DNA of 55,157 nt from a virus (Duplodnaviria; Heunggongvirae; Uroviricota; Caudoviricetes): positions 1 to 55,157 of the IMG/VR virus record IMGVR_UViG_2721755660_000006. One strand, 5' to 3'. Made by a program: the position numbers and the translations under genes. Every line of letters starts with the position of its first letter. Positions within the stretch are counted from its first letter, which is position 1. Below the pieces are notes generated by a model, which saw nothing but the letters and a program-made list of their open reading frames with translations, was not told where the DNA came from and ran no database searches. Positions 4,501-46,848 of the stretch are shown piece by piece.

Positions 4501-5078
4501 GCTGATTTTGCCGCATTGGTTTCACTGGTGGCAGCCGCCGTTTTGCTGTTGCTGGCTGATGTTTCGCTGGCTTTTGCTGCATCCTGTGACGCTTTCGCTG
4601 CGGTCGCTGAGTTTGCCGCTGCTGTTTTTGATGCCGCCGCCGCGTTTTTGTCTGATTCTGTTTTTTGAGCGTTGGCGGTTGATTGCGCTGTTTCTGCGCG
4701 AATGTTGGCAAGAAGCTGATCCATCTGACCATCTCCGCCGAAATCTTTCCACCACTCGACGGCTGCGGCGATCTCTGTTTCCTTGCCCTGGTAGTAACGC
4801 AGTGTTTCAGCTACGTCCTGAGCAAGACCATCAACTGAGATCGAGTCAGAAAGCAGAATGCTAAATTTTGTCCCTGCAGGAATGGCAGGATTAGCCGCAG
4901 GCGTTACTGATAATTCAGTACCGCTCTTAATTTCGGTGATAGTGAAAATCTGTACCGGATTTCCAATGGCAATGAGCGTGCACCCCACACGGATGAGAGA
5001 GAGCGGCGCGGAAAAGTTTGTTCCCGTGCCTGTAACAGTATTGCCGCTAATGGCAATTGTTCCCGTTGTATAAATCAT
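1596..5078 (-). CDS. Tail fibre protein with C-terminal intramolecular chaperone (peptidase S74-like) domain
   Basis: 1160 aa; Ala/Ser/Thr/Lys-rich repetitive N-proximal region as in lambdoid side tail fibres; C-terminal SSDRDLKDNIQVIGDATEAIRKMNGYTYT matches the conserved autoproteolytic chaperone motif. Confidence 0.8.
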   Translation of the reverse strand: MIYTTGTIAISGNTVTGTGTNFSAPLSLIRVGCTLIAIGNPVQIFTITEIKSGTELSVTPAANPAIPAGTKFSILLSDSISVDGLAQDVAETLRYYQGKETEIAAAVEWWKDFGGDGQMDQLLANIRAETAQSTANAQKTESDKNAAAASKTAAANSATAAKASQDAAKASETSASNSKTAAATSETNAAKSAADALNYRNQAQGIVGSSIGLSSNPRDCPDISGNPSGYLGFLRIMEGAAGWPSIASGERYLSGFICPTLGSVPAFSGLFIGQMTGSAYTYKWSESTGPQWTRHARKDEVSRLVQGSSETALWAAGGKQKFVLWDGGTGDTINWGVYDDSAGAFVPLKVAHGGTGGLNSGQARTNLEAMYEKKSDLGSTDINTLTGEYSGFYYQGLNANATTARGYPVSSAGALLVIRNNANGNAGCTQLYFPYNATTGTFYMRQHIIQSSSSGWEWTAWKKFQSLDFTDSPQFTNLNLVRSSDVATTAGGILQSVLNDASGAQRARARFYSEFRGDGKSWATIHLQNGDKNQYAGLSEDGDFSLNSGDFIGRRVRLTANFNYPVEISSAHPTIRFNETDRPSNTPYYSLVFDGGNWRIQKDGYDGTKTSNSMSYNYARDEIEVPNLKVNAIAVPTNLEQTKTNMQIPFAGIAHWVDYNAPTGAEAGKYYPVIVSHPSHYNGDFLVEIAMRTKSISGSEEPNCNAIHLWLRDGGWSDMGAAAFGHYFCYANNENAILCVRGTDKGQYQHNAIYVRGDAFPIRIAVTVGCTVTIPTADWKPANTADSPTYKWGITNSSDGIDLDTYGISNNLLDFTSSATGFYCTDTYRNKYGDSYQVIQSNGTIQPGNGVATYSDQDWSAQQSDNVSKFKPIAGNINTPENSLTYGGFHVGFSGSHATQFAGRNSKFYARSFEAGVDKGWCQIATLNASSQRWTGYQQFKSTEFFADTYTRKVSLAVANSAARNGELYLWGAASRPTVLEYKIKDPDTNASLSWFFYAQQNTDDSCQLQVNGAVNCVTVNQSSDRDLKDNIQVIGDATEAIRKMNGYTYTLKENGLPYAGVIAQEVMEALPEAVGSFTHYGEALQGPTIDGNELREETRYLNVDYAAVTGLLVQVARETDNRVTELEEENASLRANIAVMDERITKLEALVRQLTGSEK

Positions 5079-5255
5079 CGCAATGACTCCATTATGTTAA
5101 TTAACGGAATAATTCTACCATTTTGTGATCTGCGTTACATTTTTGACGCATACAAAATGTATTTATTGATTTATATCAATATACGAAATGTGGTTTTGTC
5201 GGATATTTAAGCCACCGGATGAACCGGACGAGCTAACAAGAATGAGGATTCAAAA

Positions 5256-5504
5256 ATGAAAAACATGTTCAAAGTGGTCTTATTCGCTGCGGCTGTAGCT
5301 CTTACTGGTTGCTCTGTTGACAAAGAGGCTGCATTGCACAACCTGCCAAATAGCGGAGTAATCCCACAAGAAATTGTCTATGATGCTGACGGTCATCTTG
5401 TATATGACACTGAAAAACTTCCGTATACTGGACAATGGTGTCATGAACTCGATCACAACATGCGCCGCATCGGTAGCCCGTCGAATTGCGTAGCTAACTA
5501 CTAA
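5256..5504 (+). CDS. Small lipoprotein moron, possibly Cor-like superinfection exclusion
   Basis: 82 aa with lipobox (LTGC) after a hydrophobic signal; sits between tail fibre and J on the opposite strand; own upstream element and terminator. Confidence 0.6.
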   Translation: MKNMFKVVLFAAAVALTGCSVDKEAALHNLPNSGVIPQEIVYDADGHLVYDTEKLPYTGQWCHELDHNMRRIGSPSNCVANY

Positions 5505-5511
5505 AAGAAAA

Positions 5512-5537
5512 CCCCGCGCGAAGCGGGGTTATTTTTT
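5512..5537. terminator. Bidirectional rho-independent terminator between lipoprotein gene and J
   Basis: CCCCGCGCGAAGCGGGG hairpin flanked by A-run and T-run, between convergent gene ends. Confidence 0.75.
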
Positions 5538-8500
5538 ATGCCCATGATCCTGAGCTTCTCGTAACAAGCGCAAGACCCGCCCTTCTTTCTGCGCCTGTGC
5601 TGGTGTTAGTGTATTCTTCCGTTATTTTTATAGTCACTTTTTGCGCCGTGATCCCTGCGACACAATGGGATACCGTAAATCCGAATTGAGGCGTTGATGC
5701 AGCCCTTACTACTGAATATGTTTTCTTATTGCCATTAATATCAATTGTTACTTTTATGGATGTTGATTGAGAATATTGATAGTAAGTCAGGTGATAAGGA
5801 ATCATCACAAAAACGGTTTTAGAAAGCGAACTCGAAGACGAATCTGTATAAGTTTTAGTAACAGAACGCGATGCACTGCCCGACTGGTCAGGGAATGATG
5901 CTTGAGGTATAAAGTTAGTTGACGCGACATCGCCTACAAAACTTGTAGCCTCTAGCGACCCTTTAAATTTACCGCTATTTGCATACACCGCCCCCCTTAC
6001 CGTTACGTTGTTAAGCTCCGCGCTACCGTTTTTATTAATCATCCAGCCAGCCGAACCGGCTTTATAGTTGGTTGACTGTATTTGCTGTGCAATTTTAGCT
6101 GTAGTGATTGCTGCATCTGCAATTTTAGCTGTCCCTATTGATGCGTCTTTAATAAACGCTTCGCGCACATACATTGCACCATTGGTGACATAGAAAGGCG
6201 TTTGATATGTGCCGTTTGCGGCGGTCATTAACACGAAGCGGTCAACAAGGAAAATACACTGCGATTGAACGTTAGTCCCGCTACCAGTCAGGCCAAGAGA
6301 CATGCCTGTTGCGTATTTTTTGCCGTTGTTGTCGGTGGCAATCTTGATTGACCATGACGCATCAACGTTACCTTTGAAGTCAGTTAACGCTTTCGATGTC
6401 GTCTCGATCGCCGTGGTGTTCCCGTTAACTGTTACTGTAAGCTGATCAATTTTGGTTGATAATGCCTCGTCCGCAGTTGTCATGGTCTGCGACCATTCCG
6501 TGATGCTTGAGTTTACAGCTTCGAAAGACGCTGAGATCTGGCTGAATTTTTCCGCGCTTGATGTTTCATGCGTAGAAAGTGCTGTTGACACTTCAGATAC
6601 TTTCGAATTAATCGTACTGGTAAGCGATGAGTTAAGACTACTTATTGCATCTGTGCGGGCCTTTGTCTCATCTGCAATAGCTTTGTCGATACGGGTCACA
6701 TTGCTTGTAACCTTGCTATCAAGCGTGCTGATGCTTGCATTCACTCCGCTGATAGCTTCGGTTCTTGCGCTCGTCTCATCTGCGATGGCTTTATCAAGAC
6801 GAGAAACACTTGCGTCTGTTTTGTTTTCAAGGCTGCTTATTGAGGCATTTACTCCGCTTATTGCTTCCGTTCTTGCCTGTGTTTCGTTTGCAATAGCTTT
6901 GTCTACTCGCGCTATCTCGCCTTTGATGTTTGAGTCCATCGTGTTCATCTCTGCGGTGATAGTTTCAAGCGCTTCTGCTGTTGCCTGTTTTTCGTCAGCA
7001 ATAACATTGTCTATACGGTCGATTTGCGCTTTAGTCTCACTGCGCCCTTTCTTGTATTGAGCGGTAAGAGTGACGCGCGTATTAGTTTGAGCAAGCGAAT
7101 TATTGATGAGCGCAAGCGATGCGTTTTGTAGGCTTGCTTTTGTCTGTGCCAGTTCGTTATCGACGTTTTCGCTTGATACCTCTAATGAGTCTATTCTTAC
7201 CTCATGTTTGCCTATTTCATCGGCGTTTTCTTCGACTTTTTTATAAAGGTCTTCAGTGTCTTTTTTAAGCGCGTCTGTGTCTGTTTTAAGGTTGTCTGTA
7301 GCTGTTTTAAGGTCGTCTGTAGCTGTTTTAAGGTCTTCAGTTGCACTTTCGATAATGTCTGCGCGGTCGCCAAGATCCTTAATGTCGCTTACCATTTCCT
7401 TGAACTGGTCTGAATTCAGCACGTCTTTAGTGACATAATCGCTGATTTCATCGAAGTTTTCTGTTGGCTGTCCTGATGCTTCTACGAAGTCAGAAACACC
7501 AAAAGCATTACGTGTGCGCACATAAACGTAATAAGTGTGGCCCGTATTCATGCCGCCGAAAGTCCACTGATACCCGCGCCCGGTAAACTGTGCCGCCGTG
7601 GTTATTTTTGCCGGATCTGTGATCTGGTTTTCCCCTGCATAGTAGAATTCGTACGCTGTATCAGTTGTTAGCGTTGTCTTGCTTATCGGGTACACTGTAG
7701 CCTGAAATACACCTGGAACCCAGTTAACGCCTACTGGCGCTGCTGGCGCACCGATAACAAGGTCAACGATACTTTCGGCACCCTTCATGCCAGTATCATT
7801 TCTTCCGCGAACCCCTAAAGAATACACGCCAGCGTCAATGCCATAAAAATCATAACTGTATTTCGTGGTTTCATAGCTTTTAACCACCGCACCATCTGCA
7901 TTATATATGCGGATCTCAAATGTCATACGATGCGTGGTTGTCTGTGTTTCCCATGTGGCGCGGCATTGAATTGTTTCCGATCCAATGTTTACCACCTTCA
8001 GATTTTCAATGTTCGGCACGCGGAAATGATTAAGCGTATCATTGTTGACCTCAAAGATTGCGCCTTCATCGACTATCGCTTGTTTGTTAGGGTCGTGCTG
8101 TGCGGCTTCGATAGTGTATACGCTGTTATTTTCTGTTTCTGCTACACTGGTGATCCGGCACAAAACGGGTTTTGCCACTTCAGTCGATACAGCAAAAACA
8201 GTGCCGTTTCTAATCCATGACGGGGCCGCCGCCAGTGTGATTTTGTTTCCGCTCACCCCGGTGATCTGATGTTTTTTAAACTTGCCATCGCTATCAAGAA
8301 GGCTGATTGTATCCCCAGCGGCAATATATTTAGCATCAACCTTGTCTACAGTTATTACTTTGCCGTTGTTCGCAACGATGCGACCGCCTAAGCGAGCGCC
8401 AGCGCGGTTATTATCGAGGATCTCGATGATATCCCCTGGCGTAAAGTGAATCGCGTCACGGGCCATTTTAAACGTGAATTTTGACGGCTCGCGTTTTGCT

Positions 8501-9864
8501 GTTTCTATCAGCCATTTGCCCGCGCGGTACGCTTGCCCGCGTGACGTGCACCCGAACGCCTCCAACGTGGTTTCGTTGTAACCATCACGGGCGATTAGCT
8601 CATCATCTGCTACATACTCTTTGGATTGCTCCCAGCCGTTTTCCGGGTCTGTCCATGACACAATCACGGCGTTGTAGCATTCTGCGCGGGCGATACTTGA
8701 ACGAGTAAACGCGCCATCAACGACATTTGCATTTGTAATGGTGGCGATCGGGTCTTGTGGTGCATCAATCATCACGGTAAGGCGTTGCCCGTCCCATAAC
8801 GCGATACCCCTGAACATCCCGGCGATATTGTCCAGTAAGTCGCGGGCGCTCATTTGCTCTGTGATGTAAGCGTTAAGCGTCATGCGAGGCTCAAGGCCGC
8901 CGTAGCCATCATCAACCAACTGGTCGCAGTATTGAGAAAGCGTATACAGTGCGCCGTCATCAACGTCAATATAGCCAGCATGACGGGCAAGGCCGAAACG
9001 CTCGTTTTTAACCAGGTAACGGAAGATCCACGCAGGGTTATTAGTGTAAGCCTGTTTCAAGCCGCCAAGCCATAAACCGGAATAAGTGCGCGTTTCCGGG
9101 TCGTAGTTATCAGGCACGTCGACAATAAGACCACGCAGGTGATAAGTGCGTGTAGGCGTGTCGGTGTACTGGTCGTGGTCAATTACCGCGCCTGCTACAG
9201 CGGTGTGAGGATAAGATAAATTATCGTCGATTATTTCGCTGTAGCTACTCCATCGCGTATCATTTCGCAATAGATCGCTTGTGCTATCAGCCGTTACGCG
9301 GCGAACGCGAATATCAAACGGTTTTTCATCCGGCGCGTTGATAATATGCGCTTCAAGATATTCTCCGCTGATCTTACCCGGACCTATAGTGACGTCTTTA
9401 ACAAGCGTCCACGTAGAAGAAGACGAAGGCTTCACGTCAATCATCATCATGACAGATGTATTATGTTGATTGCTTTGCTCGTCAGATTGTACAAGTGAAT
9501 CGACGCCGATATTCAGGCGCACGCGCGTAACGTTAGGATCTGATACAGTCCTGATTATTGGAGTATCGTGTTTCACCTGAGCGTTAACAATAACGGTTGA
9601 TTCGATGGCGCTAAAACCGTTAATAGGTGATTGATCTAGAGTACCATTGCGCCACGCCACGCTAACGCCAGGGATGCTGGTATTGCCGTTCGCGTCAGTT
9701 ACAGGGGTGTCATTAAGCATAACGCTGTTTAATGGCGCTTTCGTATTCACAGGTCCATAAATCGGACCTTCTGAAATAATATCCAGTACACGATAAAACT
9801 GTTTATGATACAGGTTGTCATTTATCAATGTTGGTGTTTTTGCTTTGCCGCCGCCGCTACTCAT
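5536..9864 (-). CDS. Host specificity / tail tip protein (lambda gpJ-like)
   Basis: 1442 aa; N-terminal region aligns by eye with lambda J (ISEGPI, LRGLIVDVP, FGCTSRGQAYRAGKWLIET); contains internal 36-aa and 7-aa tandem repeats. Confidence 0.9.
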   Translation of the reverse strand: MSSGGGKAKTPTLINDNLYHKQFYRVLDIISEGPIYGPVNTKAPLNSVMLNDTPVTDANGNTSIPGVSVAWRNGTLDQSPINGFSAIESTVIVNAQVKHDTPIIRTVSDPNVTRVRLNIGVDSLVQSDEQSNQHNTSVMMMIDVKPSSSSTWTLVKDVTIGPGKISGEYLEAHIINAPDEKPFDIRVRRVTADSTSDLLRNDTRWSSYSEIIDDNLSYPHTAVAGAVIDHDQYTDTPTRTYHLRGLIVDVPDNYDPETRTYSGLWLGGLKQAYTNNPAWIFRYLVKNERFGLARHAGYIDVDDGALYTLSQYCDQLVDDGYGGLEPRMTLNAYITEQMSARDLLDNIAGMFRGIALWDGQRLTVMIDAPQDPIATITNANVVDGAFTRSSIARAECYNAVIVSWTDPENGWEQSKEYVADDELIARDGYNETTLEAFGCTSRGQAYRAGKWLIETAKREPSKFTFKMARDAIHFTPGDIIEILDNNRAGARLGGRIVANNGKVITVDKVDAKYIAAGDTISLLDSDGKFKKHQITGVSGNKITLAAAPSWIRNGTVFAVSTEVAKPVLCRITSVAETENNSVYTIEAAQHDPNKQAIVDEGAIFEVNNDTLNHFRVPNIENLKVVNIGSETIQCRATWETQTTTHRMTFEIRIYNADGAVVKSYETTKYSYDFYGIDAGVYSLGVRGRNDTGMKGAESIVDLVIGAPAAPVGVNWVPGVFQATVYPISKTTLTTDTAYEFYYAGENQITDPAKITTAAQFTGRGYQWTFGGMNTGHTYYVYVRTRNAFGVSDFVEASGQPTENFDEISDYVTKDVLNSDQFKEMVSDIKDLGDRADIIESATEDLKTATDDLKTATDNLKTDTDALKKDTEDLYKKVEENADEIGKHEVRIDSLEVSSENVDNELAQTKASLQNASLALINNSLAQTNTRVTLTAQYKKGRSETKAQIDRIDNVIADEKQATAEALETITAEMNTMDSNIKGEIARVDKAIANETQARTEAISGVNASISSLENKTDASVSRLDKAIADETSARTEAISGVNASISTLDSKVTSNVTRIDKAIADETKARTDAISSLNSSLTSTINSKVSEVSTALSTHETSSAEKFSQISASFEAVNSSITEWSQTMTTADEALSTKIDQLTVTVNGNTTAIETTSKALTDFKGNVDASWSIKIATDNNGKKYATGMSLGLTGSGTNVQSQCIFLVDRFVLMTAANGTYQTPFYVTNGAMYVREAFIKDASIGTAKIADAAITTAKIAQQIQSTNYKAGSAGWMINKNGSAELNNVTVRGAVYANSGKFKGSLEATSFVGDVASTNFIPQASFPDQSGSASRSVTKTYTDSSSSSLSKTVFVMIPYHLTYYQYSQSTSIKVTIDINGNKKTYSVVRAASTPQFGFTVSHCVAGITAQKVTIKITEEYTNTSTGAERRAGLALVTRSSGSWA

Positions 9865-9878
9865 GGCTTTATCTCCTG

Positions 9879-10409
9879 TTAACTTACAACGTCTAAGGCG
9901 TCTTTATTGTTTGTTGTGTCTATGCCTAACGATCCTACATTTGAACCTACTTTCATTTCGCCCAATAAAATTGGCACTGGTCTACCCTGGCCCACCCTGT
10001 TTTCTATGCTGGTGTAACTGTTGTTTGTTATGGTGTTATCCTGTGCGCTTTCTGATGATGTTTTCACCTTCATGTTGCGAGACATGAAAATAGAAAATGC
10101 GACACTAACAACTGATATTCCGATCATAATCCAACCGACCACACCGATCCCTGCAATACCACCTTCCACTATTGGCGCAATAATTACCGTAGTCCCATCT
10201 GGATATTTGCTATTAACCGCAGCGGGCGCGGTCTTTTCGTCGTAATCTTTCCCGGCAATTCGTAAACGCAAAGGTGTATTTAAAAACTCCTTCTTGAATT
10301 CCTGATTCTGCGCGGTCAACAAGCGAAGTCCTTGCGCTGGCGTTTCAACGTTTAAATACACTTTGCTGTAATATCTTCGAAGATTGCCCGTAAATCTAAA
10401 TTTGAGCAT
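9879..10409 (-). CDS. Tail assembly protein (lambda gpI-like)
   Basis: 176 aa; pattern matches lambda I (RIAGKD, glycine-rich hydrophobic middle, PILLGEMKVGS); overlaps the K gene as in lambda. Confidence 0.8.
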   Translation of the reverse strand: MLKFRFTGNLRRYYSKVYLNVETPAQGLRLLTAQNQEFKKEFLNTPLRLRIAGKDYDEKTAPAAVNSKYPDGTTVIIAPIVEGGIAGIGVVGWIMIGISVVSVAFSIFMSRNMKVKTSSESAQDNTITNNSYTSIENRVGQGRPVPILLGEMKVGSNVGSLGIDTTNNKDALDVVS

Positions 10410-11083
10410 TTATCAGATCTCCATATTGAATGCGTTTGTCGAACATAAGCGGGCCGCATTTGCTCGCGGCGGCTTAGCAGTCCGGCATTGTCATGATGCA
10501 AAACAGTGTTATCTCCCAGGTAAATCATCGCGTGGCATGGGTCCGCGCCTTTAAACGGCTGCCGGATAATTACATCTCCAGGCTGGATGCTTTGCGCGTC
10601 AACCTGATAAAACCCGTTTAGCGGCAAGTTTTTTAAATACAGGTTTTCACCACGCAACCACCACCCATCAAGGCGCTCGAAGTCTGGCAGATCCACGCCG
10701 CAAAGGTGATAGGCGTCGCGGAAAAGCGCGTAGCAGTCTGTTTTCCCGTGTTCAAATTTTCTGCCTAACAGGTGCGCTACCGGACGGAATTTCCTGATCC
10801 TTCCGCCTGAATACAAAAGCCAGGGTAGGCCTGAAATAACTTGCTGTTGTCGATCCCGTGCAGACAATACCGGAATATCATCAACGTGAGAGTGAAAAAC
10901 GGCGGTTATAACGCCTAATTCGTCAGCTTTAATGTAATCGTCAGGCGAAATCTTGAAGCTGTTGTAAGGCGTTTCAGACACGTTAGCGCACGGGTAAAAA
11001 TATTCGTTATCTATTACCAGTCCGCAAACTTCTTCAAACGGATGCGCGGCGGCATAACGCAACATTTTGTCTTCCATCACCAT
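10352..11083 (-). CDS. Tail assembly protein (lambda gpK-like)
   Basis: Synteny between L and I; start refined to the internal Met (MVMEDKML) abutting the L stop. Confidence 0.75.
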   Translation of the reverse strand: MVMEDKMLRYAAAHPFEEVCGLVIDNEYFYPCANVSETPYNSFKISPDDYIKADELGVITAVFHSHVDDIPVLSARDRQQQVISGLPWLLYSGGRIRKFRPVAHLLGRKFEHGKTDCYALFRDAYHLCGVDLPDFERLDGWWLRGENLYLKNLPLNGFYQVDAQSIQPGDVIIRQPFKGADPCHAMIYLGDNTVLHHDNAGLLSRREQMRPAYVRQTHSIWRSDKCSNLDLRAIFEDITAKCI

Positions 11084-11085
11084 GA

Positions 11086-11790
11086 TTAACCTACCTTGCT
11101 GGAACCAGGGAAACAGGAAATTGGTAACGGATTTGGACGCGGGAAACGTAAACGACAACCGCTCAAGCGGTGGCTGCATCTGTCGGCTTTAGGATCGCTT
11201 GTCGGCTCGTCTTTATCGTTTGCCACTGGTCCGCCAGAGTACATACATCCGTCGCCTCTGTATTGCCACTGGCAAACGTCAGCAAGGATGGTGCGCCCAG
11301 GGATAACGGCCTTGTCAGCATCAATTGGGGTTGACAGTTCATATTGCACCTGATCCGCTGTTTCCTCGCTCATGGCCTCCACGACGTAAAAAGATACAGC
11401 CTCAATAGATGGATCTGCATCTGGATTGCCGTTTGGGAAGTTAACGGCGTCCAGGTATTTTACTTCCACCTGGCGGCGCGTAACCTTCATTCCTCGCAGG
11501 TCGTTGAAGTCGTTATTCATCCCTGTGATTAGCCCGCCGATATTGGCTACAACCATTTGAGGCCGCGAATAAACGCCCTCGTTTTTCATTTCGAAGCCAG
11601 TAGCCTCGATCGGGTAGCTGTTGTAAGTTAATCCCTTCCAGATAACCGGGCCGTAATAGCCATTCGCGCCGGAATGGAAGCGGATAACCTCGCCACCCAG
11701 GGGCGACAAGTCCAGTTCGAACAAGTCAATCACCGCTCCCACACCAGCGTCCACGGAATCAATAATCATCTCTGTAGGTATATTGCGCAT
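11086..11790 (-). CDS. Minor tail protein (lambda gpL-like)
   Basis: Aligns by eye with lambda L (FLDAVNF-NGN, DRCS-RLSGC); start refined to MRNIP, preceded by AGGTGA Shine-Dalgarno. Confidence 0.85.
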   Translation of the reverse strand: MRNIPTEMIIDSVDAGVGAVIDLFELDLSPLGGEVIRFHSGANGYYGPVIWKGLTYNSYPIEATGFEMKNEGVYSRPQMVVANIGGLITGMNNDFNDLRGMKVTRRQVEVKYLDAVNFPNGNPDADPSIEAVSFYVVEAMSEETADQVQYELSTPIDADKAVIPGRTILADVCQWQYRGDGCMYSGGPVANDKDEPTSDPKADRCSHRLSGCRLRFPRPNPLPISCFPGSSKVG

Positions 11791-11919
11791 TTTCTCACCT
11801 TCTGATTTTGTGATCTGCGTCACGCCAAATCATACCAAAATGGATTGATCGCGGTTTATACAATATGTATATTTTACTCAAACGGAAGCACAGTTAACAA
11901 AATGGCGCGGAGGTGTGAG

Positions 11920-12075
11920 ATGGCTGATAAGGTGTGGAGGTTGAAGGTATTTCTGACAGACGGAAGGGAAATGACTGTTGCCCTGTATAAAGATGAAGGC
12001 GATGCACTTACTGACGCGCTCTTACTCGCTGAAGACGAAAGAGTTTTGGGATACAGACTCGAACCTGTCAAATGA
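11920..12075 (+). CDS. Hypothetical small protein (moron island A, gene 1)
   Basis: 51-codon ORF with GGAGGTG Shine-Dalgarno; plus strand, antisense to the tail genes. Confidence 0.5.
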   Translation: MADKVWRLKVFLTDGREMTVALYKDEGDALTDALLLAEDERVLGYRLEPVK

Positions 12076-12087
12076 TGGTTTAACAAA

Positions 12088-12438
12088 ATGCAAAAATATA
12101 GTTTAGAAATATGGACTGATAAATGTGAATGGGAGCGCATGGGCCTGTTCGACACATACGTCGCAGCGCGTGATGAAGGTCGTGAGTTACTTCGCTGTTG
12201 GTCTAACGCTCGTGATTTTGATATTACTCCGGTGCAAGTGCCGGATAAGGTGGAAGAGATGAACCCGAAAGATATTAACTTTAACGTCAATGTTGAATTT
12301 GCAGACTCTATGGATCAGTCTTGCCCTGGTGAAATACACGCAAAAGGTTTCCCGGCAGACGATCCGCAAGCAAAACGCGAATACGAAAAAGCTGCGAAAG
12401 ACTTCTGCATAGATAACCTGGGCGCATTCGATAAATAA
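12088..12438 (+). CDS. Hypothetical protein (moron island A, gene 2)
   Basis: 116-aa ORF closely following gene 1 on the plus strand. Confidence 0.55.
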   Translation: MQKYSLEIWTDKCEWERMGLFDTYVAARDEGRELLRCWSNARDFDITPVQVPDKVEEMNPKDINFNVNVEFADSMDQSCPGEIHAKGFPADDPQAKREYEKAAKDFCIDNLGAFDK

Positions 12439-12447
12439 GGCGGCAAC

Positions 12448-12696
12448 ATGGGGCGGCGCAATCACGGTGATTATGTGTACACGTTGAAACAGGCCGCCCG
12501 CCTCATCGGTTATCATGAGCACGAATTTATTGATTTGCTGATTGAGCGCGGGATACTGTACCAGGTCTGTTTAACGCTGTACCCGAAAGCGAAATACCTA
12601 CAGGAAAAGTTATTCATCATCATGACGGATGAAAACCAGGTGAATCATTCATTCGTCACTGATAAGGGATTGACATACCTGAAGGGGGCGTTATGA
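12448..12696 (+). CDS. Hypothetical protein, possible HTH DNA-binding (moron island A, gene 3)
   Basis: 82-aa ORF 10 bp after gene 2; helix-turn-helix-like segment (TLKQAARLIGYHEHEFIDLLIERG); followed by a terminator. Confidence 0.5.
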   Translation: MGRRNHGDYVYTLKQAARLIGYHEHEFIDLLIERGILYQVCLTLYPKAKYLQEKLFIIMTDENQVNHSFVTDKGLTYLKGAL

Positions 12697-12767
12697 GATG
12701 TGCGAAAATTACGTTATGGAAGTGATTATTATCATCATTGGATTGTTATGTATTCTGCTATCGACAC

Positions 12768-12790
12768 TATAAACCCCGCTTCGCGCGGGG
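12768..12790. terminator. Bidirectional terminator hairpin between island A and a minus-strand small gene
   Basis: CCCCGCTTCGCGCGGGG hairpin between convergent ORF ends. Confidence 0.55.
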
Positions 12791-12796
12791 TCGTGT

Positions 12797-12997
12797 TTAT
12801 ACGCCATCAAGCAAAAATAATACTTCCCTACCCTCTCTCGATCTGCATCCGACATACCCGTCACCAACATCATGAAGATACCAGATCTCGCCATTATCAG
12901 CCTTTACAGTAAGATCGTTGATTTCATAGTCGTCAAACAATGTAAAAGCGCCAGTGCGGTCCACTACACAAATACCATACATATTAACCTCCATCAT
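12797..12997 (-). CDS. Hypothetical small protein downstream of gpM
   Basis: 66-aa ORF whose start overlaps the M stop region (coupling-like arrangement). Confidence 0.45.
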   Translation of the reverse strand: MMEVNMYGICVVDRTGAFTLFDDYEINDLTVKADNGEIWYLHDVGDGYVGCRSREGREVLFLLDGV

Positions 12998-13359
12998 CTG
13001 ACGACCTGCTCAAACGTTGCGTTTAGCGTGTACAAAGACCCGTCTTTAGTCATGCTCCATCGGCGGCAAACAAAAAGCCTTTGCACGTTATCCATCGACG
13101 GCGACCAGTAAAAAGCCTCGACAGCGCCGCGCGCCCTCAAGAATGCTTCCGCCTGGATCGCTACATTCCCACCATCGCCGCATCCTGCACTACTGCCTTT
13201 AAAAACCAGGGTGTAACTATCCAGTAATGTGTTAATCCCTTTCGCCTGGCGTTGTTCATACCCATCACCAAGTTTAATGACAGATACGTTTGGCTCCCTG
13301 GTCACGCTGTAGCTTCTTTGCGGCGTCCATCTGAAAACTTCCGGCATAAAACCCCCCAT
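12994..13359 (-). CDS. Minor tail protein (lambda gpM-like)
   Basis: 121 aa; aligns with lambda M (FRW, GDGY-QR, C-terminal FEQVV). Confidence 0.85.
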   Translation of the reverse strand: MGGFMPEVFRWTPQRSYSVTREPNVSVIKLGDGYEQRQAKGINTLLDSYTLVFKGSSAGCGDGGNVAIQAEAFLRARGAVEAFYWSPSMDNVQRLFVCRRWSMTKDGSLYTLNATFEQVVR

Positions 13360-13515
13360 AAGTTACATTTTGTATATATATTTACGCGCTTCTACGCGAA
13401 AAATGAGATCTTCATCACAATGATTATAGCTAGTTTACAAAATGGCTTCACATAGTACGAAACAAGATGTATACATAAAGCAAGAAGAAAGCAGTACCAA
13501 CGAAGGAGGCCCAAA

Positions 13516-13670
13516 ATGAAACGCTATGTAGTGGTAATGCTAAACAACGCATTCGAACAAGTGGAAATAGCAATCGTTAAGGGTTTCGACGACGCATTCA
13601 AATACGGTCAATTCATGATGAATGCAAAAGAAGATGAATACCGGGACTTCTTCCTGAAGGCACTTAACTA
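13516..13670 (+). CDS. Hypothetical small protein (moron island B, gene 1)
   Basis: 51-codon ORF (MKRYVVVMLNNAFEQ...DFFLKALN) with strong AAGGAGG Shine-Dalgarno; not in the supplied track (under 60 aa). Confidence 0.5.
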
Positions 13671-13688
13671 AGGATGATGGGGTGAGTT

Positions 13689-13943
13689 ATGAAACTGGTA
13701 GCGATTGACAAAAATCTGAAAGCACAGAAAAACGCGCCGGGACATGTAGTCAAAAAAGCAAAGGAACTTTTGAACGCGTTTTTAAACAAGAATGCGTCAC
13801 CCAAAAAATTGAAAGACGGTTACGGCTACGCCTTCCGCGCCAATTTAGACTGGCGAGTCTATAGCCAGGATCTGAAAGAGTGGGTGATTGTTGAACACCA
13901 TAAATTCAATGAATTGTCTGGCGTTCGCGGTTGCCATAAGTGA
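13689..13943 (+). CDS. Hypothetical protein, possibly RelE/ParE-like toxin fold (moron island B, gene 2)
   Basis: 84 aa; C-terminal KKLKDGYGYAFRANLDWRVYSQDLKEWVIVEHHK resembles the RelE/YafQ-type pattern by eye; unverified. Confidence 0.5.
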   Translation: MKLVAIDKNLKAQKNAPGHVVKKAKELLNAFLNKNASPKKLKDGYGYAFRANLDWRVYSQDLKEWVIVEHHKFNELSGVRGCHK

Positions 13944-14060
13944 GGTGGTATGGAGGACGATAAATTCACCTGGAGGGAGATCTGGAATATTTGGTTGGTG
14001 ATGTTTTCTCGCAGCTATATAGCCAGAAACGGAAGATTGTAATTTGCGGAGGAAAATAAA

Positions 14061-14237
14061 ATGAAAAACCAGGCAAATAAAAGCAATGTAAAACGTATAG
14101 CCTGGATCGTAAAATGGATGGATAGTAAAGGAGACACATATACTGAACCATTTTTCAAACATACTGATGCAGTATTTGCAAGAAGTGTAAGAGGCGGGAA
14201 AATTGAAAGAGGATATACAAGTTTTGAGAATAACTAA
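14061..14237 (+). CDS. Hypothetical small protein (moron island B, gene 3)
   Basis: 58-codon ORF with GGAGGA Shine-Dalgarno, followed by a terminator. Confidence 0.45.
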   Translation: MKNQANKSNVKRIAWIVKWMDSKGDTYTEPFFKHTDAVFARSVRGGKIERGYTSFENN

Positions 14238-14242
14238 AAGAT

Positions 14243-14266
14243 AACCCCGGCATTGTACCGGGGTTT
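14243..14266. terminator. Terminator hairpin ending moron island B
   Basis: CCCCGGCATTGTACCGGGG hairpin followed by a T-rich run; the tape measure gene begins beyond it. Confidence 0.6.
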
Positions 14267-14269
14267 CGT

Positions 14270-16618
14270 TTATTTGCGGCGCGGTTGCAATATTCCGCCT
14301 GGTCGTTGTGATTCCCTTGTTATCATTTTCATTGCTACACGTTCCATTGTCTGCTCAAGTCTGCGGCTGTCCTCGTCGCTAAATCCGTTTGTGGTCTGAA
14401 TGTTGATATTGACAGGCATACTAATGCCGCCGCCACCGCCAATGTCACGGCCAGGAATAACCCTGCCATTCTCGCCAGGGATCATATATTGATTTCCGTT
14501 AGATGTCTGGAATAGCTCCGGCCTGTTGTGTTCCCCTACACGGTACATATTGCCACCAATGACGCTACCACCATTAAAGCGACCGCCGCCAAAAATTGAC
14601 GTAGCCAGCGACATGATCGCAGTAAGTGCCGCAGAACCAGCCGCCGCCCAGCTACCGCCAGTTGCCGCCGCAGTTGCCGCCGCTGCCGGGGCCGCAGCCG
14701 CCGCAATGCTCCCCTGAGCGGCTACCGCGCTTGCCGTTGTGCTGGCCTGCGTGGCCTTGCTTTGTGTCTCCATCATGATCTGATCTGCTATCCAGTTGGC
14801 TGCTATGTCTGAGAGTCTGTTACCGATATTGCCGAGTATATTGCTTCCTAAGTTAGCAAAAACATCACTCAATGATTGAGTACCGTTTAACAGGCCAACA
14901 AGCGCATTGCTCATGCCACCTTTAAGGCCATTAACGCAATCACCGATCAGGCCGTTAGTGTCGCTTTGCGCTTGCCACTGCTCCCACTTCAGATCGCGGA
15001 TCTGTTGCTCATAGGCTAACAATTCCTGTTTCTGTTGCGCTTCAGTAACGCCCAGGTCGATAAGCATTTGCTTACGGACGGCCCATTCATTTTGTGCCTG
15101 CTGAATAGGGTCAACCTCGCCTTTAAGCTGATCCATCGGGCTTACTATTTGCGCCCATTTATCACGCAATTCATCTACCGGAATTTGCGCTAATTCTTCC
15201 TTCAGTTCCTTACCTATCCCTTTTTGCGCGGCGCGGTACTCAAGGAGAGTGATTTTACCCTGGGCGAATGCAGCATCAATGGCCTTGCCGTTCTCTAACG
15301 CTTTGCGCATAGCTGCGGCGTCTTTGTTGTACTGGTCGGATACTTTTATGCCTTCATCACCAAGCCGATCAGCTTCAGATTTCTTGTCTTTTTTCCCTTT
15401 TTTCCCTTTTTTCGGCTTGCCAACTGGCTGATCGAATCCGGTGATCTTGCCGTCATCAGCCTCGCCCTGTTTCTGCATAAACTCATCATAAACGGCGGTC
15501 GCATTTTTGATGTCATTTGCAAACGTCATGACCTTACCGACTGTAGGGCCGAATTTCTTTTCGTTGTTGCTGTTTAGCTCATTCTTGCGTTTATCAATGA
15601 TCTCCTTCATCCATTTGTAGCCATCCATTAGCGCTTTGATTGGCGTTACCATCCTGATAATCTCTTCCGCCACCTCACCAGCTTTAACAGCAACATCATC
15701 AAACATGTCGATAAACTCACTGCCAGCCGTTTTTAGTGTATTGAAACAGGTTGCGGCGAATTTTGCGCCTTTACCTAATCCCTCAACGCCACCAGTTATT
15801 AAGTCGATAGCTGACACAACGCCATCTGATATGCCGAAAAGATCATCAAGTTGTTCGACAAGTCCCATCACCTCGACTTTAAGCTCATTAAAAGCCATAC
15901 CGGACGTGCGCGGTAACTGTGCAAACTTCTCGTTTGTTTCCTGCGTAGCCGCCTGGATCGCGTTGAGCATCCTTTCAGCCGTGATCTTGCCGTCCAGCAT
16001 TTCGGCGCGGAACTGCCCCATAGATAACCCCATCTGTCGGGCCATTTCCTGTATGATTGTTGGGGTGTTATCACGTATTGAGTTGAACTCTTCCGCCTGC
16101 AACACGCCAGCATCAATAGCCTGGCGGAACTGAAGCATGGAGTTTGATAGTTGTTCCGCAGACACGCCGCCCAAGTTACCAAGTTTTTGCAGCGTGCTGA
16201 CCAGGTTGAGCACCTGGCCTTCTGTGGCGGATGTGTTTTTTAGCGATATAGCAAGACCTTGCCACAGGGCACCAGTATCCTTGAGGCTTTGGCCTGTTTC
16301 TTTTGATATTTCTTTCAGTCTGTTGAAAACCCGTTCCGTTGCCTCCGCTTCACCTGTAAGCAATTTGATTTTTACGCGAAGCATTTTTGCCTGTTCCGCC
16401 ATATCCATAAATTGGCGCACCGCTTCCGCAGCAAGTAGCAGATGGATGACCCTGGTCAGTGCTTTGATTGATGTCTTCAGCGTGTTTACCTGGCGGTCAG
16501 CACGTTTTGCGCCGCGCTCTATACGGTCAAAAGCCTGGTCGGCCTGGCGTTGTGCAACGAGAAGTTGACCAGTTTTAGCGTCAACCTCGTAATAAATTGT
16601 ACCTACACTGGTAGCCAT
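14270..16618 (-). CDS. Tail tape measure protein
   Basis: 782 aa, largely alpha-helical with Ala/Gly-rich hydrophobic C-terminal segment; positioned between chaperone and M as in lambda H. Confidence 0.8.
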   Translation of the reverse strand: MATSVGTIYYEVDAKTGQLLVAQRQADQAFDRIERGAKRADRQVNTLKTSIKALTRVIHLLLAAEAVRQFMDMAEQAKMLRVKIKLLTGEAEATERVFNRLKEISKETGQSLKDTGALWQGLAISLKNTSATEGQVLNLVSTLQKLGNLGGVSAEQLSNSMLQFRQAIDAGVLQAEEFNSIRDNTPTIIQEMARQMGLSMGQFRAEMLDGKITAERMLNAIQAATQETNEKFAQLPRTSGMAFNELKVEVMGLVEQLDDLFGISDGVVSAIDLITGGVEGLGKGAKFAATCFNTLKTAGSEFIDMFDDVAVKAGEVAEEIIRMVTPIKALMDGYKWMKEIIDKRKNELNSNNEKKFGPTVGKVMTFANDIKNATAVYDEFMQKQGEADDGKITGFDQPVGKPKKGKKGKKDKKSEADRLGDEGIKVSDQYNKDAAAMRKALENGKAIDAAFAQGKITLLEYRAAQKGIGKELKEELAQIPVDELRDKWAQIVSPMDQLKGEVDPIQQAQNEWAVRKQMLIDLGVTEAQQKQELLAYEQQIRDLKWEQWQAQSDTNGLIGDCVNGLKGGMSNALVGLLNGTQSLSDVFANLGSNILGNIGNRLSDIAANWIADQIMMETQSKATQASTTASAVAAQGSIAAAAAPAAAATAAATGGSWAAAGSAALTAIMSLATSIFGGGRFNGGSVIGGNMYRVGEHNRPELFQTSNGNQYMIPGENGRVIPGRDIGGGGGISMPVNINIQTTNGFSDEDSRRLEQTMERVAMKMITRESQRPGGILQPRRK

Positions 16619-38293: not shown

Positions 38294-38452
38294 AATGCTC
38301 TCTCCTTTTCAGGTGATTTCTACGCATTTCAGCGCTGCCGGATTTTTAAAGAGCATTTTGTTTGCTTGAAGTATACAAAATGGATACGTGCTAACAAGGT
38401 GTAAAGCGCCATTATGTGACATTCATCACACAATGACGCCATTTTGTAAACT

Positions 38453-46200: not shown

Positions 46201-46848
46201 TTATGGCAGGTTTACGATCTTCGCATCAACCACCACGCCTATAATTTTTGATTCTGGATTCATAGGGATTGGCGGATACAGCGGATTCAGCGAACGTAAA
46301 AGCCTTTGACCTCCATCAATAATCAACTGTTTAAACGTCGGTATCTGCCCTTCCTCAAGCTGGGCTATAACCAGTTTGCCGTCAATAGCTGGCGCGTGCG
46401 GGTCAACAAGTATCATCGTCCCCGCCGGGATGCTCAACCCCTGCGGCGCGTTCATTGATTCACCTTTGGCAACCAGCCAGTAACTATCATCTGAACAAAT
46501 AACGCTAGTCGTAACGTGTGGTAATGCTGATCGCCTTGTGTCATCCATATTGTTTACTGTGTCCTTCCAGTCAATAACCGGGTAACTACCTAAATCACGC
46601 GGCGGTGCGGCCTGAAGTGTATTAGAAACAGAATCATCAATGACCATACCATCATGTGTAACAGTGAACTGACGACGCCCAAGCGCCCGCATAATCCGCG
46701 CAATATCTTCAAGATTTGGCTCGCGGCGACCGTTAAGCCAGTGTGACAGGCCGCCTTTAGTTATCCCCATGAGATCTGCGAGTGAATCCTGACTCATGCC
46801 CTGCGCCCGCATGAGCTGCTTTGCTAAGTCATACCATTTTGTTTTCAT
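46201..46848 (-). CDS. CI-like repressor (HTH plus S24 LexA-type peptidase domain)
   Basis: 215 aa; N-terminal HTH (MSQDSLADLMGITKGGLSHWLNG) and C-terminal S24-like autocleavage region with GESM and DGKLVIAQL. Confidence 0.85.
   Translation of the reverse strand: MKTKWYDLAKQLMRAQGMSQDSLADLMGITKGGLSHWLNGRREPNLEDIARIMRALGRRQFTVTHDGMVIDDSVSNTLQAAPPRDLGSYPVIDWKDTVNNMDDTRRSALPHVTTSVICSDDSYWLVAKGESMNAPQGLSIPAGTMILVDPHAPAIDGKLVIAQLEEGQIPTFKQLIIDGGQRLLRSLNPLYPPIPMNPESKIIGVVVDAKIVNLP

What the first reader, a model, noticed from the sequence alone, without database searches (positions are those of the whole stretch)
11805..12800. Plus-strand three-gene moron island inserted between tail genes L and M
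Three consecutive plus-strand ORFs (51, 116 and 82 aa), with short gaps and good ribosome-binding sites, lie antisense to the tail operon in the roughly 1.2-kb gap between gpL and gpM, which abut in lambda. The last has an HTH-like segment. A conserved upstream element with a CRP-like half-site pair lies at 11805..11824 and a terminator hairpin at 12768..12790. An autonomous unit in this position is typical of accessory cargo such as defence, exclusion or toxin-antitoxin genes; function unknown.
Basis: partly seen in the sequence, partly recalled or inferred. Interest (0 to 1): 0.65.

Follow-up and report, generated by a model that had tools for sequence, protein, structure and literature searches.

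The report
Accessory gene cassette inside phage tail operon
Between two tail genes of a known gut E. coli prophage (mEp021/"mEpimmI" group) sits a real, conserved, backward-facing accessory operon of four small genes, one a stand-alone KilAC "antirepressor" domain, behind a CRP-like control site; it is an ordinary kind of phage "moron" whose function is untested.

Summary
The window is an mEpimmI-group prophage, 100% identical here to phage MagusPhagus and E. coli 09-00049. Between minor tail genes L (11086-11790, -) and M (12994-13359, -) lie plus-strand ORFs of 51, 116 and 82 aa. All three are conserved in 26-27 of 27 distinct related loci and under purifying selection (pN/pS 0.36, 0.35, 0.15).

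Corrections to the finding:
- There is a fourth plus-strand gene, a 24-aa hydrophobic peptide (12698-12772) ending at the hairpin.
- The segment missing from two related prophages (11904-12986) also carries a minus-strand 66-aa ORF coupled to M.
- The upstream element (TGTGATCTGCGTCACG, then TTGATC-17-TATATT) belongs to the L-M spacer, not the insert. It survives in the cassette-less prophages.
- A 19-base copy of the element precedes the Lpp exclusion-lipoprotein gene, and a weaker CRP-like site precedes a ParE-like cassette.

ORF3 is a stand-alone KilAC/ANT domain. ORF1 and ORF2 belong to narrow E. coli-phage families of unknown function.

Best reading: a self-contained moron operon whose effector is the KilAC protein. 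I think it most likely modulates prophage induction or SOS signalling; a toxin/defence role is the main rival. Transcription, CRP binding and function are untested. The kind is known, so interest is moderate.

The parts
11809..11824 (.). CRP-like palindrome TGTGATCTGCGTCACG, matching 9 of the 10 core positions of TGTGA-N6-TCACA
   Evidence: 6 sites with at most 1 mismatch in the window against 1.43 expected, and 0 of 100 shuffles reach 6; half-sites invariant in 29 distinct sequences, centre variable; present in the cassette-less loci L007 and L018.
11845..11873 (+). Sigma-70 promoter-like element, TTGATC-17 nt-TATATT. The predicted start near 11880 puts the palindrome centre at about -63.5.
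   Evidence: Nearly invariant across 29 distinct sequences. Activity not tested.
11858..11870 (.). Second palindrome ATACAATATGTAT, overlapping the -10 element. Its counterpart ATACAAAATGTAT lies upstream of lpp.
11904..11919 (+). Start of the segment absent from cassette-less relatives, including the ORF1 Shine-Dalgarno GGAGG (11909-11913)
   Evidence: Alignment with L007.
11920..12075 (+). ORF1: 51 aa, acidic (pI 4.7), family known only from E. coli (pro)phages. PGAP names it 'transporter', which looks like an annotation artefact.
   Evidence: phrog_29559; pN/pS 0.36.
12088..12438 (+). ORF2: 116 aa, acidic. It has a variable N-terminal beta-beta-alpha-beta domain (residues 1-50) and a conserved, low-confidence C-terminal module (58-116).
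   Evidence: pLDDT about 95 for residues 1-50; pN/pS 0.45 for the N domain against 0.13 for residues 73-116.
12448..12696 (+). ORF3: 82 aa, a stand-alone KilAC/ANT domain protein and the most conserved gene of the cassette
   Evidence: PF03374, 28.7 bits; pN/pS 0.15.
12698..12772 (+). Fourth ORF: 24-aa hydrophobic peptide MCENYVMEVIIIIIGLLCILLSTL. In 18 other loci a 38- or 45-aa hydrophobic peptide takes its place.
   Evidence: 24 aa in 9 loci, pN/pS 0.26; the alternative peptide 0.27; GRAVY 2.06.
12773..12791 (.). G+C-rich hairpin that could terminate either strand. It is an inverted copy of the lpp terminator at 5510-5530.
   Evidence: (pair I1, 89% complementary over 27 nt).
12797..12997 (-). 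66-aa ORF on the tail-operon strand. Its start overlaps the M stop codon (ATGA), and it is part of the segment absent from cassette-less relatives.
   Evidence: phrog_3249, E=1e-20; pN/pS 0.24.
11086..11790 (-). Minor tail protein L (flank)
12994..13359 (-). Minor tail protein M (flank)

Best explanation
**What it is (shown, about 0.85 confident).** This is a self-contained accessory operon, a 'moron', of mEpimmI-group temperate coliphages, lodged antisense in the tail operon between M and L. It comprises ORF1, ORF2, ORF3 (a stand-alone KilAC domain) and a tiny membrane peptide. A promoter-like element with an upstream CRP-type palindrome precedes it, and a hairpin follows it. A 66-aa gene on the tail-operon strand is inherited with it.

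**How it works (inferred, about 0.35-0.4 confident).**
- The operon is transcribed on its own, mainly when the late operon is silent, that is, in the lysogen.
- Its weak promoter depends on an activator bound at the palindrome. CRP-cAMP is the best candidate, which would tie expression to carbon status.
- The conserved effector is the KilAC protein. It has no enzyme motif and would act by binding another protein.
- I commit to the view that it modulates prophage induction. It would do this either as an antirepressor acting on the phage's CI-type repressor, or as an AriS-like damper of RecA/SOS signalling.
- ORF2's conserved acidic C-terminal module, and perhaps ORF1, would be its partners or modulators.

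**Left unexplained.** The role of the membrane peptide.
For: **Shown.**
- Coding and conservation.
- Presence or absence between otherwise collinear prophages.
- The non-coding spacer is far more conserved than neighbouring silent sites (0.097 against pS 0.47), with invariant half-sites and a free centre.
- A 19-nt copy of the element lies upstream of lpp, whose type-C relative Lpp010 excludes phages when expressed (PMC11893012). There the same promoter module carries three different lipoprotein cargos.
- ORF3 is a KilAC domain. It keeps versions of the two motifs noted for KilAC proteins, AARLIG for AKxLxL and TDKG for TxKG (bioRxiv 10.1101/2024.01.05.574328).

**Favouring induction control (inferred).**
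- ORF3 is near-fixed (27 of 29 distinct loci) and the most constrained gene. PMC11893012 lists a KilAC-like antirepressor among its manually defined core genes.
- Its nearest relatives outside the clade are C-terminal domains of Ant/Rha regulators of other phages.
- The KilAC domain of Listeria AriS alone blocks the SOS response (PMC9043618).
- The window's repressor has an S24 domain with the GESM and FKQL motifs, but no Ala-Gly or Cys-Gly in the linker.
- Most mEpimmI phages were not UV-inducible (PMC11893012). The route to induction is therefore open.
Against: - No transcription, CRP-binding or phenotype data exist.
- The promoter scan is no richer than shuffled sequence (6 found against 5.4 expected).
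- The palindrome centre falls near -63.5 from a predicted start, not at the canonical -61.5.
- A minus-strand promoter-like element (TTGTTA-18-TAAAAT, 11900..11871) lies in the same spacer, and the spacer is kept in cassette-less phages. It may therefore serve gpL.
- The lpp copy of the site has a poor right half (TTACA or TTGCA).
- Stand-alone KilAC CreP and the KilA-C domain of Phi11 Gp07 are growth and division inhibitors. That favours a toxin reading.
- A 44%-identical ORF2 homologue sits elsewhere without any KilAC neighbour, so an ORF2-ORF3 partnership is not obligatory.
- The fold searches gave only generic matches.
Confidence: 0.5

Rival explanations
1. Toxin-based lysogen protection, by abortive infection or a toxin-antitoxin-like arrangement. 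The KilAC protein would be a growth or cell-division inhibitor. The co-expressed acidic proteins ORF1 and ORF2 would hold it in check, with their variable domains sensing an invading phage. The membrane peptide would be a second effector.
For: - Stand-alone KilAC CreP (103 aa) is bacteriostatic, causes filamentation and co-precipitates weakly with FtsZ (bioRxiv 10.1101/2024.01.05.574328).
- The KilA-C domain of Phi11 Gp07 inhibits growth (PMC5944126).
- ORF1 and the ORF2 N domain are much more variable than ORF3.
- The neighbouring cassettes are an exclusion lipoprotein and a ParE-like gene, each preceded by a CRP-like site.
Against: - No PADLOC, Pfam or NCBIfam toxin, antitoxin or defence match.
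- pN/pS is below 1 throughout, so there is no sign of positive selection.
- The cassette is nearly fixed rather than swapped for other systems.
- An ORF2 homologue occurs without KilAC.
Confidence: 0.2
2. The genes are lytic-cycle genes rather than lysogen genes. They would be small host-takeover or anti-defence proteins made early after infection or induction, which merely happen to sit in the tail region.
For: - The ORF2 C-terminal module occurs as stand-alone 39-56-aa acidic proteins inside arrays of small genes in unrelated phages.
- The ORF2 N domain resembles many small uncharacterised phage proteins, including DUF7336.
- ORF1 and ORF2 are acidic.
Against: - Orientation against the late operon, with a separate promoter and hairpin, is the usual layout of prophage-expressed morons.
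- A copy of the upstream element precedes lpp, an exclusion gene that must act in the lysogen.
Confidence: 0.15
3. The conserved spacer element (palindrome plus AT-rich block) serves the tail operon rather than the cassette. It could be an internal promoter or operator, or an mRNA element, for L-K-I-J. The cassette would simply have landed next to it.
For: - The element is intact in the two cassette-less loci.
- A minus-strand promoter-like TTGTTA-18-TA(A/C)AAT is conserved in it.
- It lies 19 bp upstream of the gpL start codon.
Against: - A 19-nt copy of the motif and the ATACA-N3-TGTAT block recur upstream of the plus-strand lpp gene, and a CRP-like site recurs upstream of island 2. In each case the site is on the 5' side of the plus-strand cargo.
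- The stems never covary, which argues against an RNA hairpin.
Confidence: 0.12
4. The plus-strand ORFs are chance reading frames, and the interval belongs to a minus-strand tail gene or is junk.
For: Minus-strand ORFs of 138 and 111 aa overlap the region.
Against: - The plus-strand frames keep their length and show pN/pS of 0.15-0.36 across 25-26 distinct sequences.
- The minus-strand shadow ORFs vary widely in length.
- The PHROG and Pfam matches are all to the plus-strand products.
Confidence: 0.02

Closest known systems
Phage 'morons' in lambda-like late or tail regions, for example lambda bor and lom and HK97 gp15 (from general knowledge), and the Lpp exclusion lipoproteins of mEpimmI phages (PMC11893012)
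   Same: - Extra genes sit between structural genes that are adjacent in relatives.
- They have their own promoter-like element and hairpin.
- They are oriented independently of the late operon.
- Here a copy of the 19-nt upstream motif and an inverted copy of the terminator are shared with lpp.
   Different: - This is a four-gene operon rather than a single gene.
- None of its products is a lipoprotein or a known exclusion protein.
- It is nearly fixed in the clade.
- Expression from the prophage is not shown.
CreP, the stand-alone KilAC toxin of Acinetobacter I-F CRISPR loci (bioRxiv 10.1101/2024.01.05.574328)
   Same: A single KilAC domain without an N-terminal partner domain (82 aa against 103 aa), with versions of the AKxLxL and TxKG motifs.
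   Different: - CreP is repressed by a CRISPR-like RNA and lies in a cas locus.
- No sequence comparison with CreP could be made here.
- Toxicity of ORF3 is untested.
AriS of Listeria phage phi10403S and its relatives (PMC9043618)
   Same: A temperate-phage protein with a Pfam PF03374 KilAC domain. That domain alone suppresses the SOS response and prophage induction.
   Different: - AriS has two domains (AntA/AntB plus KilAC, 259 aa) and comes from a Firmicute phage.
- ORF3 is the KilAC domain only.
- No SOS assay has been done.
Antirepressors under host-regulator control outside the immunity region: Gifsy GfoA/GftA, 186 Tum and N15 AntC (PMC3121763)
   Same: The logic I propose is the same: a small protein, encoded far from the immunity region and governed by a global host regulator, switches the prophage.
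   Different: - Those are LexA-controlled, lie near the replication genes and are not KilAC proteins.
- Here the candidate regulator is CRP and the locus is in the tail operon.
- This is a resemblance in logic only. No homology was found or claimed.
Two-domain Ant/Rha/Bro-KilAC antirepressors, such as P1 KilA and the Cronobacter, Vibrio and Hafnia phage Ant proteins
   Same: ORF3 aligns to their C-terminal domains at 33-41% identity.
   Different: ORF3 lacks the N-terminal DNA-binding or regulatory domain that defines those architectures.

Membership tests
Moron (independent accessory transcription unit in a phage late region) | Lies between two genes that are adjacent in related phages | tested here: met
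   L and M are about 130 bp apart in L007 and L018, and 39-46 bp apart in many more distant relatives.
Moron (independent accessory transcription unit in a phage late region) | Own promoter | tested here: inconclusive
   A conserved TTGATC-17-TATATT element with an upstream palindrome is present. The scan is no richer than shuffled sequence, and activity is untested.
Moron (independent accessory transcription unit in a phage late region) | Own terminator | tested here: inconclusive
   A stable G+C hairpin follows the last stop codon directly, but the T-tracts are poor on both strands.
Moron (independent accessory transcription unit in a phage late region) | Expressed from the repressed prophage | not testable with these tools
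   No transcript data are available.
KilAC / ANT domain (Pfam PF03374) | Profile match above Pfam's gathering score | tested here: met
   28.7 bits against a cutoff of 25.3, E=1.8e-6, covering profile positions 23-102 of 108. The precomputed PF03374 assignment is present on 6 of 7 homologue clusters.
KilAC / ANT domain (Pfam PF03374) | Conserved AKxLxL and TxKG motifs, as noted for CreP and P1 KilA | tested here: met
   AARLIG at residues 16-21 is an approximate match. TDKG at residues 71-74 is an exact match and is kept in most homologue clusters.
Classical two-domain antirepressor (Bro-N, AntA/B, pRha or KilA-N plus KilAC) | N-terminal regulatory or DNA-binding domain fused to KilAC | tested here: not met
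   ORF3 is 82 aa and consists of KilAC only. The upstream ORFs match none of those domains.
Functional antirepressor | Binds and inactivates a phage repressor | not testable with these tools
   This needs pull-down or induction assays.
Type II toxin-antitoxin or a catalogued anti-phage defence system | Match to a known toxin, antitoxin or defence-protein model | tested here: not met
   No PADLOC, NCBIfam or Pfam match for ORF1, ORF2, ORF3 or the 66-aa ORF, apart from KilAC.
CRP-dependent promoter | Site matching TGTGA-N6-TCACA | tested here: met
   9 of 10 core positions match. The half-sites are invariant in 29 distinct sequences and the spacer is variable.
CRP-dependent promoter | Site centred at an activating position (-41.5, -61.5, -71.5 and so on) | tested here: inconclusive
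   The centre is at about -63.5 from a predicted start, reckoned from the sequence. My estimates are about -41 for lpp and about -71 for island 2. All starts are predicted only.
CRP-dependent promoter | CRP-cAMP binding and cAMP-dependent expression | not testable with these tools
   No experimental data are available.

The most novel reading that the evidence does not exclude
Three backward-facing cassettes in the tail region of this common gut coliphage group would form one host-controlled (CRP-cAMP) regulon. The cassettes are the Lpp exclusion gene, the KilAC operon and the ParE-like unit. Within the regulon, the stand-alone KilAC protein would be the missing induction switch or brake. It would act as an antirepressor or RecA/SOS damper for a CI-type repressor that has an S24 domain but no visible Ala-Gly cleavage site. 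Prophage induction would then be coupled to carbon status instead of DNA damage, which would explain why these phages are mostly not UV-inducible.
Probability: 0.1. Interest if true: 0.65.

Novelty: new member of a known kind. Interest (0 to 1): 0.4.

Why it matters
- **Prevalence.** mEpimmI phages are reported to be as common as lambdoid phages in human faecal E. coli. How they are induced is not known.
- **A testable handle.** This is a near-universal operon carrying a stand-alone KilAC domain. In other systems that domain blocks SOS signalling or cell division.
- **If the shared element is a real CRP site.** It would show a prophage wiring several lysogen-expressed functions to host carbon status.
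- **If not.** The result is an ordinary moron with hypothetical proteins.
- **Annotation corrections.** A missed 24-aa gene should be added, and the name 'transporter' for ORF1 looks spurious.

Tried and rejected
1. **Remote homology for ORF1 and ORF2.**
   - Pfam at E<=10, NCBIfam, PADLOC and PDB profile searches gave nothing.
   - An exhaustive HMM search of 1.8 billion representatives found only a narrow family and short stand-alone modules.
2. **Fold searches.**
   - The ORF3 model gave weak MerR/Xis-type matches.
3. **ORF1 as a paralogue of the ORF2 N domain.** The alignment is in register, but hhalign probability is only 7%, so this is not established. The island-2 51-aa protein shows no relation to either.
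4. **Ipe, the mEp021 haemolysis inducer.** It is gene 29 in the early region, not in this island.
5. **Gifsy antirepressors in the tail region.** My recollection was wrong; they lie near the replication genes.
6. **The palindrome as an operator of the phage repressor.** The immunity region shows no repeated TGTGA-N6-TCACA series.
7. **ORF3 as the palindrome's binding protein.** This is unlikely, because the site is kept in prophages that lack ORF3 at this locus.
8. **Rfam.** No family matched in 5000-14400.
9. **Positive selection on the ORF2 N domain.** pN/pS is 0.45, so none was detected.
10. **A LexA box in the distant clade.** The palindrome is CTG-N9-CAG, one base short of the consensus, so I do not call it a LexA box.
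Full report
**Identity of the window**

The region 11700-13100 is 100% identical to Escherichia phage MagusPhagus (PP925836) and to a prophage of E. coli 09-00049. It is 86-92% identical to the mEp021-group phages mEp010, mEp013, mEp021, mEp044, mEp515 and mEp554. These belong to the 'mEpimmI' group of Nus-dependent, non-lambdoid temperate coliphages described in PMC11893012. That paper does not discuss this interval. It does list a 'KilAC-like antirepressor' among its manually defined core genes. Deposited annotations call the genes hypothetical. mEp021 gene 71 is 'putative antirepressor', and PGAP names ORF1 'transporter'.

**Check of the observation**

- The tail operon runs on the minus strand in this order: tape measure protein (14270-16618), M (12994-13359), L (11086-11790), then K, I and J.
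- The L-M gap is 1203 bp.
- The three plus-strand ORFs are at 11920-12075 (51 aa), 12088-12438 (116 aa) and 12448-12696 (82 aa), separated by 12 and 9 nt.
- Only ORF1 has a strong Shine-Dalgarno sequence.
- The palindrome TGTGATCTGCGTCACG is at 11809-11824, and the hairpin is at 12773-12791.

**Are the ORFs genes?**

I collected 80 IMG/VR loci through gpM, plus phage and E. coli records. In the close clade (M at least 82% identical) there are 29 distinct L-M intervals. Twenty-seven are filled (1203-1895 bp) and two are empty (about 130 bp).

| Gene | Distinct filled loci with it | Pooled pN/pS |
|---|---|---|
| ORF1 | 26 of 27 | 0.36 |
| ORF2 | 27 of 27 | 0.35 |
| ORF3 | 27 of 27 | 0.15 |

The overlapping minus-strand ORFs vary widely in length and behave as shadows of the plus-strand genes.

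Two things were missed.

- A 24-aa hydrophobic ORF lies at 12698-12772 and ends exactly at the hairpin.
  - It is 24 aa in all nine loci that have it, with pN/pS 0.26.
  - In 18 other loci a 38- or 45-aa hydrophobic peptide (MKIEVLALIIMGLIVFG...) takes its place, with pN/pS 0.27.
  - A small membrane peptide is therefore a regular fourth gene.
- A 66-aa minus-strand ORF lies at 12797-12997. It matches phrog_3249, has pN/pS 0.24, and its start overlaps the M stop codon as ATGA.

Optional genes of 77 aa (4 loci) and 67 aa (8 loci) occur on either side of ORF3.

**Is it an insertion?**

The prophage of E. coli MS 21-1 (L007) and one IMG/VR genome (L018) are collinear with the window but lack 11904-12986. 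The missing segment runs from the ORF1 ribosome-binding site to the start of the 66-aa ORF. It therefore carries genes on both strands.

The roughly 113 bp next to gpL, including the palindrome and the promoter-like element, is retained in these empty sites. The 'upstream element' is thus resident spacer, not cargo.

In a more distant clade (M about 65% identical) the same junction takes one of two forms.

- In some loci it is about 40 bp and holds a terminator-like hairpin.
- In others it holds 330-800 bp of unrelated cargo, often in a similar layout: a small sense-strand ORF after M, and an antisense ORF facing it.

The M-L junction is therefore a recurrent cargo site in this tail module.

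**The regulatory element**

- Across the 29 distinct spacers, mean pairwise distance is 0.097. Silent-site divergence is 0.47-0.49 in the adjoining ORF1 and ORF2.
- The palindrome half-sites never vary (0.000), while its central five bases vary freely (0.337).
  - This is the pattern expected for a dimeric DNA-binding protein.
  - The half-sites match the CRP consensus TGTGA-N6-TCACA at 9 of 10 positions.
- The window holds six sites with at most one mismatch, against 1.43 expected, and no shuffle out of 100 reaches six. Three of the six lie 5' of plus-strand cassettes in the tail region:
  - 5124-5139, before the lipoprotein gene lpp (5256-5504);
  - 11809-11824, before this cassette;
  - 13404-13419, before the island between M and the tape measure gene.
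- The lpp and island-1 copies share 18 of 19 bases (ATTTTGTGATCTGCGTyAC) and a second palindrome, ATACA-N3-TGTAT, at the -10 region.
- The lpp terminator (5510-5530) is an inverted copy of the island-1 hairpin.
- Lpp of this type (type C, Lpp010) excludes superinfecting phages when expressed from a plasmid (PMC11893012).
- In 19 distinct loci the same lpp promoter module precedes three different lipoprotein genes or none.

Caveats:

- The lpp site has a weak right half (TTACA or TTGCA), and my search pattern fixed its left half.
- Transcript starts are only predicted. They place the sites near -41 (lpp), -63.5 (island 1) and -71 (island 2).
- A minus-strand promoter-like element is also conserved in the island-1 spacer.
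- Another regulator with the same half-site geometry is not excluded.
- The site is kept in prophages that lack ORF3 at this locus, so ORF3 is unlikely to be its binding protein.
- The immunity region shows no series of such sites, so the phage repressor is also unlikely.

**The proteins**

*ORF3*
- It is a stand-alone KilAC/ANT domain (PF03374, above the gathering score).
- Homologues form only seven 90% clusters, all from E. coli where a source is named.
- Outside the clade, its nearest relatives are the C-terminal domains of larger Ant/Rha proteins of Vibrio, Cronobacter and Hafnia phages, at 33-41% identity.

*ORF2*
- It has a confidently predicted beta-beta-alpha-beta N domain (residues 1-50, pLDDT about 95) that varies between alleles (pN/pS 0.45).
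- Its C-terminal module (DSMDQxCPGEIHxxGFPADDPxAKxEYxKAAKDF) is conserved (pN/pS 0.13) but predicted with low confidence.
- That module also occurs alone, as acidic proteins of 39-56 aa inside arrays of small genes in unrelated phages.
- The N domain resembles many small uncharacterised phage proteins, some named DUF7336.

*ORF1*
- It is acidic and narrowly distributed.
- It aligns in register with the ORF2 N domain, but without statistical support.

No defence, toxin or antitoxin model matches any of the three proteins.

**Mechanism**

Published work on KilAC domains points in three directions.

- Suppression of the SOS response by the KilAC domain of Listeria AriS, probably through RecA (PMC9043618).
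- Bacteriostasis and filamentation caused by the stand-alone KilAC protein CreP and by the KilA-C domain of Phi11 Gp07 (bioRxiv 10.1101/2024.01.05.574328; PMC5944126).
- The classical antirepressor context of P1 and other phages.

I favour a role in induction control, for these reasons.

- ORF3 is nearly fixed and is the most constrained gene, which is unlike swappable defence cargo.
- Its relatives are phage regulators.
- The window's repressor (46201-46848, minus strand) has HTH and S24 domains with the GESM and FKQL motifs, but no Ala-Gly or Cys-Gly in its linker.
- The group is reported as mostly not UV-inducible (PMC11893012). How these prophages are induced is therefore open.

This is inference, and I put it at roughly 0.35-0.4. 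The main rival is a toxin or abortive-infection role (about 0.2). It is supported by the CreP precedent and by the neighbouring exclusion and ParE-like cassettes. A lytic-cycle role (about 0.15) cannot be excluded without transcript data.

**Novelty and verdict**

The sequence and its gene calls are already public, and morons in tail operons are a known kind. What is new is modest.

- The unit is defined as a four-gene operon plus a co-inherited sense-strand gene.
- There is a presence/absence polymorphism.
- An upstream motif with a CRP-type site is shared with lpp, and a weaker CRP-like site precedes island 2.
- ORF3 is recognised as a stand-alone KilAC domain with testable precedents.

I score interest at 0.4. 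This is a sound, ordinary accessory cassette with one moderately interesting regulatory hypothesis attached.

Noticed in passing
window 13392-14265: A second backward-facing cassette lies between M and the tape measure gene. It holds a 51-aa acidic ORF (13516-13671), a ParE-like toxin-domain protein (13689-13943; PF24732, E=1e-7; pI 9.9) and a 58-aa basic ORF (14061-14237). It ends at a hairpin that could terminate either strand (14243-14265). The CRP-like site TGAGATCTTCATCACA (13404-13419) precedes it and is mostly conserved across relatives. In L029 and L030 the 51-aa gene is absent and the ParE-like gene comes first.
   Followed up: partly
window 5120-5532: The exclusion lipoprotein gene lpp (5256-5504, +; type C, about 91% DNA identity to mEp010/mEp013) lies between J and the side tail fibre gene. 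Upstream it shares 18 of 19 bases (ATTTTGTGATCTGCGTTAC) with island 1, and its terminator is an inverted copy of the island-1 hairpin. In 19 distinct related loci the same promoter module precedes three different lipoprotein genes or none.
   Followed up: partly
window 38415-38430: A perfect CRP consensus core (TGTGACATTCATCACA) lies in the roughly 350-bp intergenic region upstream of the ninG, rusA and antitermination (Q-like) genes, which are on the minus strand.
   Followed up: no
window 46201-46848 (-): The CI-type repressor has HTH_3 and Peptidase_S24 domains with the GESM and FKQL motifs. No Ala-Gly or Cys-Gly cleavage site is visible in the linker, and the S24 profile match starts at position 27. 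This may relate to the reported lack of UV induction in this phage group.
   Followed up: partly
loci L042-L087 (M-L junction of phages whose gpM is about 65% identical): In these more distant phages the junction carries a terminator-like hairpin (AAAAAAGCCACCnnnnGGTGGCT). In filled versions this is followed by a CTG-N9-CAG palindrome (one base short of the LexA consensus) and a conserved leader of about 125 nt with apparent hairpins, one overlapping the Shine-Dalgarno sequence. After the leader come unrelated antisense ORFs of 58-154 aa, facing a small sense-strand ORF (MTLEQRVEALE...).
   Followed up: partly
loci L088-L094 and L099: The ORF2 C-terminal module occurs as stand-alone acidic proteins of 39-56 aa inside arrays of small genes in unrelated phages. 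A full-length ORF2 homologue (44% identical) sits in a non-tail context with no KilAC gene nearby.
   Followed up: partly
window 11920-12075: RefSeq/PGAP names the 51-aa acidic ORF1 'transporter'. It has no hydrophobic segment (GRAVY -0.19) and no supporting family match, so the name looks like a propagated annotation artefact.
   Followed up: partly
window 6641-7350 (inside gene J, minus strand): Gene J contains tandem DNA repeats: four copies of a 108-bp unit and five copies of a 21-bp unit. They correspond to the repetitive 'ATDDLKT' and 'IDKAIADETxARTEAISGVNASIS' stretches of the J protein.
   Followed up: no
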